From NCBI GenBank assembly GCA_030264375.1, contig JASCQW010000061.1:71882224-71946223 (forward strand): DNA of 64,000 nt, in the 5' to 3' direction. Made by a program: the position numbers. The DNA is from Carcharhinus longimanus (Eukaryota). This document shows positions 18,001 to 24,000 of the stretch, piece by piece; position 1 is the stretch's first letter; each line of letters opens with the position of its first letter.

Positions 18001-21000
18001 TGAAGAAGGGTTGCTTCCAAGGAATAGCTGCAGTTAGAGGAAGAGTAGCTACCAGGTTTAGTAATGCCTCCCTGGAGGTCCTCAGTGGACACAGTGAAAA
18101 CTGCTGTTTCTAGTTGATGGGAGGAAAAGGCCAGCAAACCTCACCAGACCTGGCAGGCTGCAGCAGAAGTCAGCAGGCATGGGGGTGGATACATGGACAT
18201 GGTTGTAATGCCACAAGCAATTTAATTAACTGATATGGTTGATGAACGTACATCGTAATATCAAACTTACATCCTTGGAAGTCACGAAAAACACCACAAA
18301 ACTTGCTCATGAGTTAGTGGAAACAAGAGTACTTTAACATTACTCTTGTTTTTCTCACAGATCCAGTGGCAGATTGNNNNNNNNNNNNNNNNNNNNNNNN
18401 NNNNNNNNNNNNNNNNNNNNNNNNNNNNNNNNNNNNNNNNNNNNNNNNNNNNNNNNNNNNNNNNNNNNNNNNNNNNNNNNNNNNNNNNNNNNNNNNNNNN
18501 NNNNNNNNNNNNNNNNNNNNNNNNNNNNNNNNNNNNNNNGCGGGGAGTGGGGGGGGGAGGTGAGTTGATATTTCTGGGCAGAGTGAGGCTGGCAAATGGC
18601 TGTGGGACCCCAGGATAACTAGTTGGGAGAGGATTGCGCTCGATCAAGGCTGGCTGCATGTGCAGCCACAGAGGTTTACACATGCACAATAGTGCCCTCT
18701 GCTGCTTTAGCAGCCTTCCTGGTGACTTAAGCCCCATTCCCTTTTCCCTTCAGGTGAGGAACGGTTCAGCCCATTTTCTAATGCACTAAGGGCATAAAAT
18801 TCTGGATTTAAATTCGTCCAAAAAATGGACGAGAAACTCTGCTGTTTTCCTGCCCGTCCTGGACTTTGAATTTTTTTGGTAAGTTCGTCCCCACAGTGCC
18901 ACACCCTTCTTGTGTACCCTCCAGCACAGATGCTTGTAAGCTGGCAGCCATAACCATGACACCAGCTGGGGAGCGTAGCACAGCAGCATGTGAACAGCTA
19001 AAGGAAGCAGTGACAGGCATGGCCACTCTCATTGGAAGACTGAGGAAGGGCTCAAGAATGCTCAGCTCCACAAAAGTCTCTGGAGTTAATCGGCAAAATG
19101 GCAACACTGGAGCAACAGTAGTGCAAAATGTGTGGATGGAGGAGTCCATCCGCACCATGAGTGGAGGCATATCTCCTCCATTGAGATAGTGAAGATCCTC
19201 ATGGAGAACCTTACGTAGGATATTATCCAGTTGGTGCAGCAAGTACCCGCTGAACTGCATGTCACCATCTCATTGGTGAGCTCTCTGAGTGACGGGTGGG
19301 TGAAAAGGTTCTGAGATGCCTAGATCCCTCACCAGGTGCTCAAGTGCTCCAGGAATACAGGGAAGTACAAGTGGTCCATAAGAGGGTGAAGTAACGGCAC
19401 CCTGAAGCCCCTAAGGGTTCCTCTGATGGCGCTCCAGGCACCGGACGTGGTTCCCTGGACCTTGTGAATGTGACATCAATGCTTCATGAAGCCTTGATGA
19501 CTGGAGTCCCTCCTCCACAGATGCAGATGCCCCCACCTTGTGCTTGGGCCCCAGTCACCCAGAGGATGAATACAGCAGTCATCAAATGCACCAGAACGGC
19601 AATGCAAGAAAACTGATTTCACTTCATCTGATTGCACCAGGACAACATAATATTGAAACGCCCACAAGCATTGATGTAAAACCACCACATTGCACTTGGG
19701 TTTCATGGGTGATAGCACAAAATGAGAGATTTGTTTCAATATGTAAATGAAAGGTACTGTCTTATTTAAGGTAATATCTTCAGTCTTCCTTTCTGCACTA
19801 CTGAGTTGTCACCAGCTGGTGAGCTCTTAAGAAGGTCTGCATTGCATGAGGGCTAGTGTATGCATTAGCACCCTGTCAAGATGGGCCAACTGAGGTAATA
19901 AGGGTATTCAAAGAAAGGCTGTTGTAATATGGTTTTAAGCATTTGCAGCATGCCACCACTAGAAGGGAAAGTTTATATGGTACTGTCTCAGTTTCACTTT
20001 GGCCTGTGAGCAGAACACAGCACACACAACTCTGTTGCTATGTCTTCAAACTTTCTGGATGGGATTCTCTCAAAAAAATTCTAAATGTTGAATGCTTTTA
20101 TTCGGAATCTCCCTTTTAAAATTCAGGCAATATCCAGATGGAAAAAGCACATGAATTAATATAGCAACAATCTCCAAGATTTTTCAATAATTATATCTCC
20201 ATGTGTACATCACTCATCCTTAATTAGTGAATTATGAAAAGTACAGCCACCCACTCAGAAATAAGATCATTGCAAACTGATATCAATTCTGTGTATATTG
20301 AATCAACTGTACAAGGCATTGCATTCCCCTAGATTTTGTGTCTCTTTCCTTTTGACTACAATTCCTTGTGGATTGCGTGAATAAAAATATCAACTTAGCT
20401 CATTACTGACTAAATATTATAGGGGGGGCAATTCTCCCAAAAATTTCTGAGTACTGAATTTGCATGAAAACTGGAGTAAATCACACTGTTTTTTTCAGCG
20501 GGAGTTTCAAAATGAATTTCCTACACTGCAGAGTGCACTGGTGTGATTCATCTAGGAAACAGTGCATGGGACCTATTCCTGCTGGAGAGGTTGGCAGCAT
20601 AGTGCTGAGCGGGCCACTGCACATGTGCCAGTCTGTCAGTGCTGAGATTGGCGCATGCACAGTGGCCCCTATCTGCTGGCCTCCTCGATTGTTGAACAGC
20701 CCTGCGGCCCAGCATCACCAGCCCTCTCACTGCTCACCCCCTCCCACCACCCTCCCACCATGGCCCCCCCGAGTCCAGCCCTGACTTCTCCCTCCCTCTT
20801 AGTCTACCTTCATCTTCTGCTCCTCCCTGCCCCTGCCAGTCCCAATCTCCTGCCTCCCACCAGCAGTTCCGCCCCCTCTCCTGCAGGCTACACTCCCACC
20901 TCGATGGCCAGCCCCGTTCGCTGGCCTTCCTCCCTTTCCCATTGATCCTGACTGCTGAGTAGCAGAGGGACCCACCCCACAGATCGCCCTGAGGCCCTGC

Positions 21001-24000
21001 CCCATCCCCTTGGCACTGCCAAGGAGCCCGATGGGCAGTGCCAAGATGCTCCCTGAGCATTGGCTTTTCTTCAATCTACTATCCTGGCTTTTGTCATGCT
21101 TATGTTTTTCTCATTATTGTCTCATTGCTCAGATTTCTCCTATTTATACTTTTGTTACCGACTTCGATTCATTTTGATTAGATTCAGCCAAGAATCTTTC
21201 TCTGTTGGGTTTCAATCACCTACAAAGCTGCAGTTATCACATTTGGCAAAGGAAGAAACAGGAATAAAGAGTTCTTATTTTGAGACCCATCCTGCAGAAA
21301 TGACTCCCATCATTGAAGGGAAAGATTACAGAGATACCAGCCAGCAACTGAGTATTGACAAGATGAGAAGTTCACTGTGGAAACAAAATCACAGCACAGC
21401 TCACCTTTCTCCGAAAGCATCAAAGCATGTGGCAATCTCATGCTAGCCAAGTCATTGTGCAGAAGATAGAAAAGTACTGTGTCAACAAGTATTGGATCAA
21501 TCTCTGTGAAGAAATACAGATTGATGGTCAGAGCAGTAACCTTCACATTATGTATGACAGTATCAAAAGAGCACTCAACCCCATCATCAGCAAACTGCTG
21601 ATTTGGCCACAGCATTGACTGTGCGAGCCATGTGCTCCCTCTGTGTTCCATCAAAGTGTAAATCCTTTTAGTTTTACCATTTGGAGTCGATGACAGTTAT
21701 ATTAATATACAAATGATTAAGCATTTTCTACAACTCATTATGAAATTTCTGGCATGTATTAAATGTATTAAATCTGATTCATGAGTCATGGGTCAGTGAA
21801 GATGCCTGATTTCAATCTTGTGGCCCACTGAGATGAAGGAAGGCCACTCATGCAGCCCACTTACTCGCCTAGATTGCTCATCACTGTTCTAGGCAGTGAA
21901 GGTTGCAGGTGATGTCAAAAAAGCCTTGATGCACAGTGTGCATGGTGAAGGAAGTGGATGTTTAAAGTGGTGGATGGACTGTCAGTCACACGACTGCTTT
22001 GTGCTGAAAGGTGTCAAGTTTCCTGAGTGTTTCCTCATCCAGGCAAGTGGAGAGTATTGCGTAGCACTTCTGGCTTGTTTCTTCATGGGTGGTAGATCAG
22101 ACAGAAGTTCTTCTGACCTATTATTGTATTCACAACATTAAAGGTGACTACCAAGATGTTGATGATAGCAACTTCAATGATGGCAGTGATAGCAAATGTA
22201 AAGGGGAGGATTTTAGGAACTCACTGCTGGGATGGTCATTACCTGGCATTTGTGATTCTTTTCTGTCCAAGCCTAATTATTGTCCTGGTTTTGGTACATA
22301 ATGCTGCCCAGATTACTTTATTATTTGATGAATTGTGAATGGAAATGAATACTGTGCAAAGAACAGCAAACAGCCTCACATCTGATGATATGGATGGCGG
22401 GTATTGCATTGAGGAAGCAACAAAAGATACTTGGGCTTGGACGCTACCTTGAGGATCTCCTGTAACAATGTTCAAGGGCTGACATCAAGCAACTGCAATC
22501 ATGTTAACTTTGTGTTACATATTCCAACCAATGTCCCCTCCCCCCCACTAATTCCCACTGACTTCAATTTTACCAGGGCTCCTTTGCATCAATCTTGGTC
22601 AAATGCAGCCTTGATGTCAAGGGTAGAATCACCTTTGCAGTTCAGCTCCTTTGTCCATATTTGGCCAGAAGCTGTAATTACATCAGAAGCTAAATGATTC
22701 TGGAGGAATCCCAATTGAGCATCAGTGAGTAGGCTGTTGGTGAACAGGTTATGTTTGGCAGCACTGTTGATGAATCTTTCCATTAATTTATTGATGCTTG
22801 GGAGGAGACTAATAGGGTGGTTATTACTAGATTGGTCCTGCTTTTAGTGGACAGGACATACGTGGGCATTTTTTTTTTCAATTGCTTGCTACTAGAAACA
22901 AACAGATTTAATAGTGTTAGAGATTGCAATGCATCTGCTGGTAAATTTTACACTGATCTTTCATCAGCTAGAAAACAGTTGTCAGCAAGTAAGTGTTATT
23001 TGACATAGGTTTAACATGATGCATATCTTTTATGTTGATGATTTAAAAAAAATAAATATTGGAAGTGCACAGTAAGTTAACTGTACTGCATTTTCCAATT
23101 TGCCTTCTAGTGTTTGGATTGGGAATTTCAAATGATGCTGAGGCCAGGGCTAAGCTATTGCTCTGGTATTGTAAAGTCAATGAGATGCAAATCACCTCAA
23201 AGAATGCACCAATACCAATGCTTGAGTGAAGTGCGTAGAGGAATCATCCAGCAACCCAGATGTGTGACATGCAAGTTATTCGATGATGCACAATATACTC
23301 AGGACACAAGTAATTCTCATTTCGAGTTTTGGTAGAAAATGGCAACTGTGGATTGACCATTTGTTACATGCATTCCTGATCTTCCTTTCAACTGACTTGA
23401 TACGAAGGAAAATCTTGGGTGAGGTATATAACGAAAATTTCTCCACACGTTAGAGTCATTATAAATACACTATGCCATCTAACTGAATACGCTGGGGAAA
23501 GTCACATGCAGAATAATGCAACAAACAAGCCACATTTCTCTTCAACCTTCACTGAATTTCTGTTAAAATATACAGGACTTTCAGATTTCATAATTCACAA
23601 TACCAATAGCATGAACACAAAGGGGTTGACTTTAACTCTTCACTCAGCATAAATGGGGCACTAACTGTGTTAATTTGAGATGGTTGATTTACTGGCCCAT
23701 TTCTGTTCTGGCACCATTTCAACTTGGTCCCTTTATGGCGAGGAGCTCACCTAACATGTGCAATTGAGGTCCAATAATGTAGGAACATAATAGGACAGAA
23801 GGAGGCCATTTGGTCTCTCTCATCCCTGCTAGTCCTCTGCAGAAGCAATTCTCCTAGTGCTCCCCCTCGCCTTTTCCACATAGTTCTGCATATTTTTCCT
23901 TTTCAGATAATGATCCCATTTCCTTCTTAACGCCCAGATTGAATCTGGGCCTCCAGCACACTTCCAGGCAATGCATTATAGATCGTTACACTCACTGAGT

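What the first reader, a model, noticed from the sequence alone, without database searches (positions are those of the whole stretch)
20057..21063. Pack-TIR-like capture: a 330-bp AT-rich segment plus Harbinger end duplicated in inverted orientation 12 kb away and capped by an extra TIR
Seen: 20092-20420 is the reverse complement of 8418-8747 (about 90% by eye, 9 mismatches in the first ~135 nt). In both places the segment abuts the same end of the ~1.2-kb Harbinger-like element at the same junction (copy A ends 8415, copy B starts ~20424). Only the second locus has an additional ~35-bp left-end fragment (ggatgggattctctcaaaaaaattctaaatgttgaat, 20057-20091) in front, giving TIR - captured DNA - TIR - body, joined at a short gaat/atgc overlap. 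Known: DNA transposons can capture nearby host DNA by template switching during repair (Pack-MULE/Pack-TIR) or duplicate flanks by alternative transposition. Inference: this is a fossil of local, microhomology-guided capture by a Harbinger element, with donor and product both in the window. The segment is TAAT-rich and carries an acceptor-like tttttattcag followed by ~52 open codons, so regulatory or exonic sequence may have been copied.
Basis: partly seen in the sequence, partly recalled or inferred. Interest (0 to 1): 0.75.

Follow-up and report, generated by a model that had tools for sequence, protein, structure and literature searches.

The report
Inverted 330-bp duplicate beside transposon ends
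A 330-base AT-rich stretch sits next to the same end of a transposon-like repeat at two places 12 kb apart, but the stretch is much younger than the two repeat copies, so it looks like a break-repair scar, not a transposon caught capturing host DNA.

Summary
Segment U (20092-20419) is the reverse complement of 8419-8747, with 297 of 325 aligned bases identical and two indels. Both copies abut the same end of a repeat family I call E. Only the second locus carries an extra 37-40 nt E-terminus fragment (20054-20093), joined to U through a 2-nt overlap. The window holds exactly two U copies.

The claim that the segment and the element end were duplicated together does not fit. The adjoining E sequence differs at 57 of 265 sites, against 28 of 325 in U (Fisher p = 1.7e-5). 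This survives liberal CpG exclusion. The maximum-likelihood change point falls at the U/E junction. The two E copies are no closer to each other than to a third copy that lacks U.

My best reading (confidence 0.35) is that U was copied later than the split of the two E copies. A break at the edge of one E copy was repaired using the flank of the other.

Rivals:
- U belongs to a dispersed repeat (0.25).
- U and E were duplicated together and U was later homogenised or constrained (0.25).

Pack-type membership fails. Harbinger identity is unproven. No genome was available, so U's copy number is untested.

The parts
20054..20093 (+). Extra terminal fragment X: the first 37-40 nt of an E-family near terminus, reading towards U.
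   Evidence: 31 of 37 identical to C's terminus. Profile E = 2.3e-5. The terminus pattern has 3 hits against 0.05 expected. Only 28 of 42 identical to the terminus at 20420, so it is not a fresh duplicate of that terminus.
20092..20419 (+). U_B: the 330-bp AT-rich segment (GC 0.32). It overlaps the fragment by 2 nt (AT).
20420..21064 (+). E_B: an element copy running from its near terminus and truncated at about 21064 relative to copies A, C and F.
   Evidence: B against C: 20423-21002 ~ 10525-11124 (65.4% over 621 columns). B against F: 20894-21064 ~ 55569-55401. Nothing beyond 21064 matches the rest of A.
8419..8747 (-). U_A: the other copy of the 330-bp segment, inverted relative to U_B.
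7074..8418 (-). E_A: an element copy with both ends. It contains N runs at 7227-7326, 7886-7895 and 8182-8281, which I did not fill. The far terminus is placed by comparison with copy F.
10521..11394 (+). E_C: a reference family copy that lacks U. It has an N run at 11157-11256.
54665..55569 (-). E_F: a degenerate family copy that defines the far terminus.

Best explanation
U_B and U_A are the product of a copying event that is younger than, and separate from, the divergence of the two element copies beside them. E_A and E_B are independent old members of one TIR-element family. They lie in opposite orientation, with their near termini facing each other across 12 kb.

A double-strand break arose at the edge of one element copy, plausibly through transposase cutting at the terminus. 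It was repaired by synthesis templated on the DNA next to the other copy's terminus. The shared terminal nucleotides of the family kept the copy in register. About 330 nt of flank were copied. The new strand was then joined to the other side of the break through a 2-nt overlap. In the B locus that other side lay inside the first 37 nt of a further family copy, X.

The result is X terminus, then copied flank, then the terminus and body of E_B. It is a repair scar (templated 'filler' DNA at a transposon end), not a mobile Pack-type element. I lean towards copying from A to B, but the direction is not settled.

Shown: the duplicate, its limits, the extra terminus, the 2-nt overlap, and the unequal divergence with a break point at the junction. 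Inferred: the break, its cause, the templated synthesis and the direction.
For: - U differs at 28 of 325 sites and the adjoining element at 57 of 265. The maximum-likelihood change point lies after 20420, which is the junction. Only 1 of 2000 permutations reaches that likelihood. A three-segment model keeps the same break.
- The gap survives liberal removal of CpG-type changes: 21 of 317 against 41 of 248, p = 2.2e-4. Both classes of change are more frequent in E: transversions 5 of 324 against 14 of 266, and non-CpG transitions 16 against 27.
- K2P distances are 0.093 for U and 0.276 for E.
- A, B and C are star-like. In the terminal block the unique changes are A 14, B 10 and C 14. A-C identity is 80.2% and A-B is 77.5-81%.
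- Homology stops sharply at the outer edge of U. There the B locus shows position 37 of an element terminus, which is a non-native junction, with a 2-nt overlap.
- The inverted orientation of U follows directly from the inverted orientation of E_A and E_B.
- Repair synthesis that inserts foreign 'filler' DNA at transposon breaks is an established process (PMC4423477, passages read).
Against: - When U was copied, the two element copies were already roughly 17% apart. Homology-guided invasion would have been inefficient, so the register must rest on a few terminal bases.
- The first 12 nt of the two termini are now very dissimilar.
- The 2-log-likelihood support interval for the change point is wide on the element side (20399-20657). 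A break somewhat inside the element is therefore not excluded.
- The outermost 50 columns of U carry 9 mismatches, against 19 in the remaining 275 (p = 0.023, chosen after seeing the data). A single uniform copy tract does not predict this.
- The model needs a further element copy X next to E_B.
- U's copy number in the genome is unknown. If U is a dispersed repeat, the model is unnecessary.
Confidence: 0.35

Rival explanations
1. U is part of a dispersed repeat. It could be the body of a variant element that starts with the 37-nt terminus, or some other repeat. Under this reading the two U copies are ordinary family members, and E copies lie beside them because E inserted twice at a preferred site or because the two repeats are habitually associated.
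For: - The window is dense with decayed repeats: 128 self-BLAST rows, plus several families.
- U has discrete edges at both loci.
- In B, U follows directly after a family terminus, as an element body would.
- Independent histories for U and E would explain the unequal divergence.
Against: - The window holds only two U copies. The next nhmmer hit has E = 0.82.
- U has no terminal inverted repeat of its own and no significant likeness to the E terminus.
- Copy A lacks the 37-nt terminus exactly where A/B homology ends. Under this model that is an unexplained coincidence of two boundaries.
- U_A holds 20 TAA/TTA sites. Two independent insertions at the same site and in the same orientation would be about a 1-in-40 event without a strong target preference.
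Confidence: 0.25
2. One event copied U together with the element end. The event could have been gap-repair capture, alternative transposition producing a composite insertion, or an inverted segmental duplication. U later stayed or became more similar, through gene conversion between the inverted copies or through purifying selection.
For: - The junction is identical in both loci.
- The layout of terminus fragment, then element-adjacent DNA, then element resembles the composite insertions described for maize Ac: 'transposon termini flanking segmental duplications' (PMC4270019, abstract and section 6 read).
- If the event fell during the family's burst, a star-like A/B/C pattern is expected.
- The high-low-high mismatch profile (9 of 50, then 19 of 275, then 57 of 265) is what a conversion patch inside an older duplicate would give.
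- Degenerate LINE fragments lie collinear beyond the element in both loci: 5896-6752 against 22779-21946.
Against: - It needs a second event or selection to explain a threefold difference in distance.
- Conversion between arms already about 17% apart is unlikely.
- U shows no sign of function: the frame is broken, there is no Pfam or Rfam match, and TAAT motifs are not enriched.
- The three levels of identity (91% in U, about 79% in the element end, 62-65% in the LINE pieces) do not fit one event at one rate.
- LINE copy A is closer to a third copy at 51.4 kb (76-78%) than to LINE copy B.
- The stretch between (6753-7585 against 21065-21945) is not alignable.
Confidence: 0.25
3. Assembly artefact: one copy is a misplaced haplotig or a collapsed or duplicated contig end.
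For: The A locus is poorly assembled. It has three N runs inside E_A. Identical sequence lies on both sides of the 100-N run (8131-8181 equals 8282-8332).
Against: - The two U copies differ at 8.6% of sites plus two indels, and they are inverted.
- The U/E junction lies inside uninterrupted sequence in both loci: 8282-11156 and 18540-25265.
- The flanks differ completely.
Confidence: 0.03

Closest known systems
Templated 'filler' DNA inserted by synthesis-dependent repair at transposon-induced breaks (as reviewed in PMC4423477; passages read)
   Same: A foreign segment copied from elsewhere sits at a break next to a transposon end. The junction is non-native with a very short overlap. The donor lies nearby on the same molecule.
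   Different: The insert is long (330 nt). It starts exactly at the edge of a second family copy, which implies that the shared element terminus set the register. No excision footprint or empty site is available for comparison.
Composite insertions from alternative (reversed-ends) transposition of maize Ac/fAc (PMC4270019; abstract and section 6 read)
   Same: Transposon termini flank a duplicate of transposon-adjacent DNA. The two termini involved lie close together and face each other. The internal junction is made by joining broken ends.
   Different: In the maize model the element is re-replicated together with its flank. Here the element copies are three times more diverged than the flank. 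The far end of the B structure is missing, so no flanking target-site duplication can be checked. The superfamily is different and the host is an animal.
Pack-TYPE (Pack-MULE, Pack-CACTA, Pack-PIF) transposons (PMC8903248; passages read)
   Same: Non-element DNA lies between two termini of one family. That paper's acquisition model starts from two neighbouring insertions and the DNA between them.
   Different: - The termini are in direct orientation.
- There is no complete element.
- There is no target-site duplication.
- No gene-derived DNA is detected.
- There is no evidence that the composite ever moved.

Membership tests
Pack-TYPE transposon | Captured DNA lies between a pair of terminal inverted repeats of one family. 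| tested here: not met
   The termini at 20057 and 20420 are in the same orientation. E_B is truncated at 21064, and no far terminus is found downstream.
Pack-TYPE transposon | A target-site duplication flanks the whole composite. | tested here: inconclusive
   The right end of the composite is missing. The bases left of the fragment (CTT/TCT) cannot be paired with anything.
Pack-TYPE transposon | The captured DNA derives from a coding gene. | tested here: not met
   The 56-codon frame in U_A is broken in U_B. There is no Pfam match at E up to 1. The host's gene set was not available for comparison.
Pack-TYPE transposon | The composite has transposed, so further copies with the same ends exist. 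| not testable with these tools
   No genome of the source organism was at hand. Within the window there are two U copies and one capped structure.
PIF/Harbinger superfamily | A 3-bp target-site duplication, TAA or TTA (PMC4423477 Table 1; PMC8903248 passages). | tested here: inconclusive
   TTA precedes the near terminus in A and B. That is one shared junction, so it is not independent evidence. C and the fragment show CAA and CTT. The TAA near A's far end is internal to the element, because the likeness to copy F runs through it.
PIF/Harbinger superfamily | Terminal inverted repeats. | tested here: met
   Both ends of E_A carry the motifs GGATGGGA and ATTCTC.CA. The far end has about 19 extra bases between the two motifs. 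The start is G-rich but does not match the plant GG(G/C)CC consensus.
PIF/Harbinger superfamily | A DDE transposase, and a second ORF, in autonomous relatives. | not testable with these tools
   E copies are non-coding. 10 of the 43 open frames of 130 aa or more in the window were scanned against Pfam, with no match. No repeat library such as Dfam or Repbase was available.
Composite insertion by alternative transposition | The element and its adjacent flank are re-replicated together, so they have equal age. | tested here: not met
   28 of 325 differences in U against 57 of 265 in the element, p = 1.7e-5. K2P 0.093 against 0.276.
Templated repair insertion (filler DNA) | An identifiable donor elsewhere, a non-native junction, and zero to a few bases of overlap at the junction. 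| tested here: met
   The other U copy lies 12 kb away. The junction falls at position 37 of a terminus, with a 2-nt overlap. A 2-nt overlap alone is not significant.

The most novel reading that the evidence does not exclude
The structure may be a preserved vertebrate fossil of transposase-triggered rearrangement between neighbouring TIR elements. That would mean alternative transposition, or capture of the DNA lying next to element termini. It would be an intermediate on the way to a Pack-type element, with donor and product both still readable 12 kb apart.
Probability: 0.15. Interest if true: 0.55.

Novelty: new member of a known kind. Interest (0 to 1): 0.3.

Why it matters
If the repair reading is right, this is a clean natural example, in an animal genome, of a DNA-transposon end seeding a local duplication of ordinary flanking DNA. 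That process is documented mainly in plants and flies.

It also shows a practical point. Comparing the divergence of the flank with that of the element can separate 'copied together' from 'copied separately', even when only one window is available.

If U turns out to be a dispersed repeat, the finding is ordinary nested-repeat structure.

Tried and rejected
- **A hidden terminus outside U in locus A.** I looked for a terminus outside U_A and for a far terminus downstream of B near 21293. Neither is significant.
- **U as a short TIR element with a terminus remnant at 7074.** Dropped. The 8-mer there is the far terminus of E_A itself.
- **A TAA target-site duplication around E_A.** I first accepted this (notes). 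I withdrew it after the A/F alignment showed that the left TAA is internal to the element.
- **U as the 3' end of the nearby LINE.** The three LINE copies lose similarity at one common point (about 6752, 21935 and 51365). That point is 334 bp or more from U, and the sequence in between is not shared. Rejected.
- **A larger 2.8-kb inverted duplication.** Collinear LINE pieces exist, but only at family-level identity. Kept only as part of a rival explanation.
- **CpG decay as the cause of the unequal divergence.** Rejected.
- **Coding or RNA function of U.** No Pfam match. No Rfam match at E up to 1 and none at gathering score in the whole window. No tRNA. The fold is no better than shuffles, z = 0.75.
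- **A second small TIR element abutting U_A at 8755.** Only its far end near 8901 is supported, by 15 to 36 of 1000 shuffles. The end next to U is not supported, at 735 of 1000.

**Not done.** No genome-wide search for U or E was possible, because no collection of the source organism exists here. No supplementary files were opened.
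Full report
**Material.** The window is 64,000 bases with 15 N runs. 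I left these untouched. GC is 0.43. No tool gave the source organism.

**What is there.** A self-BLAST of the window gives 128 rows. The best non-self pair is 8282-8747 against 20549-20092 in inverted orientation (84.6% over 473 columns). This stretch has two parts.

The first part is U, a 330-bp AT-rich segment (GC 0.32):
- U_A is 8419-8747 and U_B is 20092-20419.
- The two copies show 297 matches, 28 mismatches and two indels of 4 and 5 nt.
- A profile of the two copies finds only themselves in the window. The next hit has E = 0.82.

The second part is a repeat family that I call E. Four copies are present:
- A is about 7074-8418, in minus orientation, and contains three N runs.
- B is 20420-21064.
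- C is 10521-11394.
- F is 54665-55569 and is degenerate.

Copy C shares the element from its terminus onward but has unrelated sequence where A and B have U. U therefore lies outside the element. Copy B stops at 21064, whereas A, C and F all continue. Nothing downstream of 21064 matches the missing part.

**The extra terminus.** 20057-20093 matches C's terminus at 31 of 37.
- A 20-mer terminus pattern hits three sites (10526, 20057, 20424) against 0.05 expected.
- A profile built from A, B and C alone finds the fragment at E = 2.3e-5.
- The fragment reads in the same direction as the terminus at 20420. The two termini that flank U_B are therefore direct repeats, not inverted ones.
- The fragment is about equally far from every family terminus: C 33 of 42, A 30 of 40, B-inner 28 of 42. 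It is not a fresh duplicate of the terminus at 20420, so it comes from a further copy, X.
- The fragment's alignment ends at 20093 and U's begins at 20092, a 2-nt overlap.
- Locus A has no such terminus outside U. No homology continues beyond U's outer edge.

**The key test: were U and the element end copied together?** I aligned A and B over non-overlapping columns, which gave 590 ungapped columns and 85 mismatches.
- The maximum-likelihood change point in mismatch rate falls after position 20420, which is the U/E junction. The rates are 28 of 325 on the U side and 57 of 265 on the element side.
- Only 1 of 2000 permutations reaches that likelihood.
- The 2-unit support interval is 20399-20657, so the break is well bounded towards U and loosely bounded towards the element.
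- A three-segment model keeps the break at 20420 and adds one at 20657.
- Fisher's test of U against E gives p = 1.7e-5.
- After removing every transition that could stem from a CpG in either copy, 21 of 317 remain in U against 41 of 248 in E (p = 2.2e-4). Transversions alone are 5 of 324 against 14 of 266.
- K2P distances are 0.093 and 0.276.
- In a three-way alignment with C, the terminal block has 14, 10 and 14 changes unique to A, B and C. The next block has 14, 27 and 30.

A and B are thus no closer to each other than either is to a copy that lacks U. One event copying both parts at one neutral rate is rejected. Either U is younger, or U has been kept or made more similar.

One detail goes against a simple young-U reading. 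The outermost 50 columns of U hold 9 mismatches and the other 275 hold 19 (p = 0.023, chosen after looking at the data).

**Nature of the element.** E copies are non-coding.
- Both ends of A carry the motifs GGATGGGA and ATTCTC.CA. The far end has about 19 extra bases between them.
- I first read a TAA duplication around A. The alignment with F then showed that the left TAA lies inside the element. The target-site duplication is therefore undetermined.
- TTA precedes the near terminus in A and B, but that is a single shared junction. C and the fragment show CAA and CTT.
- No transposase was found. Pfam gave nothing for 10 of the 43 frames of 130 aa or more.

'Harbinger-like' is therefore unproven. 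The defining TSD (TAA/TTA, 3 bp) is taken from PMC4423477 Table 1 and from PMC8903248 (passages read).

**Function of U.**
- The 56-codon frame in U_A (8449-8619) has a stop and frame shifts in U_B. The acceptor-like AG is changed.
- There is no Pfam match at E up to 1.
- There is no Rfam match at E up to 1 around either copy, and none at gathering score in the window.
- The fold is no better than shuffles.
- TAAT/ATTA counts are 11 and 9, against 8.9 and 8.4 in shuffles.

Nothing supports copied exon or regulatory sequence. Conservation in other species could not be examined.

**Wider context.** With a more permissive scoring, further collinear inverted matches appear beyond the element: 5896-6752 against 22779-21946, at 62-65% identity.
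- These are degenerate LINE pieces. B 22592-22843 on the minus strand matches RVT_1 at E = 1.5e-4 with 21.9 bits, which is below the curated 29.6.
- A third copy lies at 51365-51718. It is closer to the A copy (76-78%) than the A copy is to the B copy.
- All three copies lose similarity at one common point. The stretch between LINE and element is not alignable between A and B.

I read these as family-level likeness. The collinearity is noted as support for the co-duplication rival.

**Mechanism.** E_A and E_B are inverted, with their near termini facing each other across 12 kb, and U sits at each terminus. My best account has four steps:
1. A break arose at the edge of one element copy.
2. It was repaired by synthesis templated on the flank of the other copy.
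3. The family's shared terminal bases held the copy in register.
4. The new strand was end-joined, through the 2-nt overlap, to the far side of the break, which lay in the first 37 nt of copy X.

This explains the identical junction, the younger U, the break point at the terminus, the inverted orientation and the non-native outer junction. Repair synthesis that brings in foreign filler DNA at transposon breaks is established (PMC4423477, passages).

The weak points are these:
- The two element copies were already about 17% apart when U was copied.
- Their first 12 nt are now dissimilar.
- The model needs a neighbouring copy X.
- The mismatch excess at U's outer edge is not predicted.

Confidence is 0.35.

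**Rivals.**
Against it, A/B homology and the fragment's family likeness end at the same two bases. The same-site, same-orientation insertion of E would also need a strong target preference, since U_A has 20 TAA/TTA sites.
- *Co-duplication with later homogenisation or constraint of U (0.25).* The mechanism could be capture, a composite insertion as in maize Ac (PMC4270019, abstract and section 6), or a segmental inverted duplication.
- *Assembly artefact (0.03).* The divergence, the orientation and the uninterrupted junctions speak against it.

**Comparison with known kinds.** The structure works most like templated filler DNA at a transposon break. Its layout resembles a composite insertion.
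- It fails the Pack-TYPE definition. There is no inverted terminus pair, no target-site duplication, no gene-derived insert and no sign of mobility.
- It fails the composite-insertion expectation that element and flank have equal age.

**Verdict.** I rate it a new member of a known kind, with interest 0.3. The decisive step is a genome-wide search for U and a family tree of E.

Noticed in passing
8131-8181 and 8282-8332; 25237-25265 and 25366-25394; 7206-7226 and 7327-7347: Runs of exactly 100 N are flanked on both sides by the same sequence: 51 of 51, 29 of 29 and 20 of 21 identical. This looks like contig ends that overlap but were not merged.
   Followed up: partly
5896-6752 (+), 21935-22843 (-), 51365-51718 (-): There are three degenerate LINE reverse-transcriptase fragments (RVT_1 at E = 1.5e-4, below the curated cut-off). 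All three lie within about 1 kb of E-family sequence. Two of them are collinear with the U-E pair.
   Followed up: partly
6800-6904, 25125-25255, and a terminus near 8901 (minus): A family of short elements of about 105-130 bp has ends of the type GGSCAGAATTTTAC / GGATGGGATTTTCC, which resemble the E termini. One may lie 7 nt beyond U_A, but its end next to U is not significant.
   Followed up: partly
18800-18885: A pair of weak, oppositely oriented matches to the E near-terminus profile (E = 6.9 and 0.11) lie about 50 bp apart. This may be a tiny derivative consisting only of termini.
   Followed up: no
54981-55226 and 4412-4658: This repeat pair is 84.7% identical over 248 columns. The copy at 54981-55226 lies inside E-family copy F, which suggests a nested insertion.
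   Followed up: no
80-360, 17271-17476, 30694-31002, 33893-34168, 50348-50658, 60187-60525, 62685-62935: A short interspersed repeat of about 300 bp is present in at least seven copies, at 70-81% identity and on both strands. No tRNA-like gene was found in the window.
   Followed up: no
21367-21618 (+): An 83-codon open frame lies just beyond the truncation point of E_B and has no Pfam match. It may belong to whatever replaced the missing part of the element.
   Followed up: no
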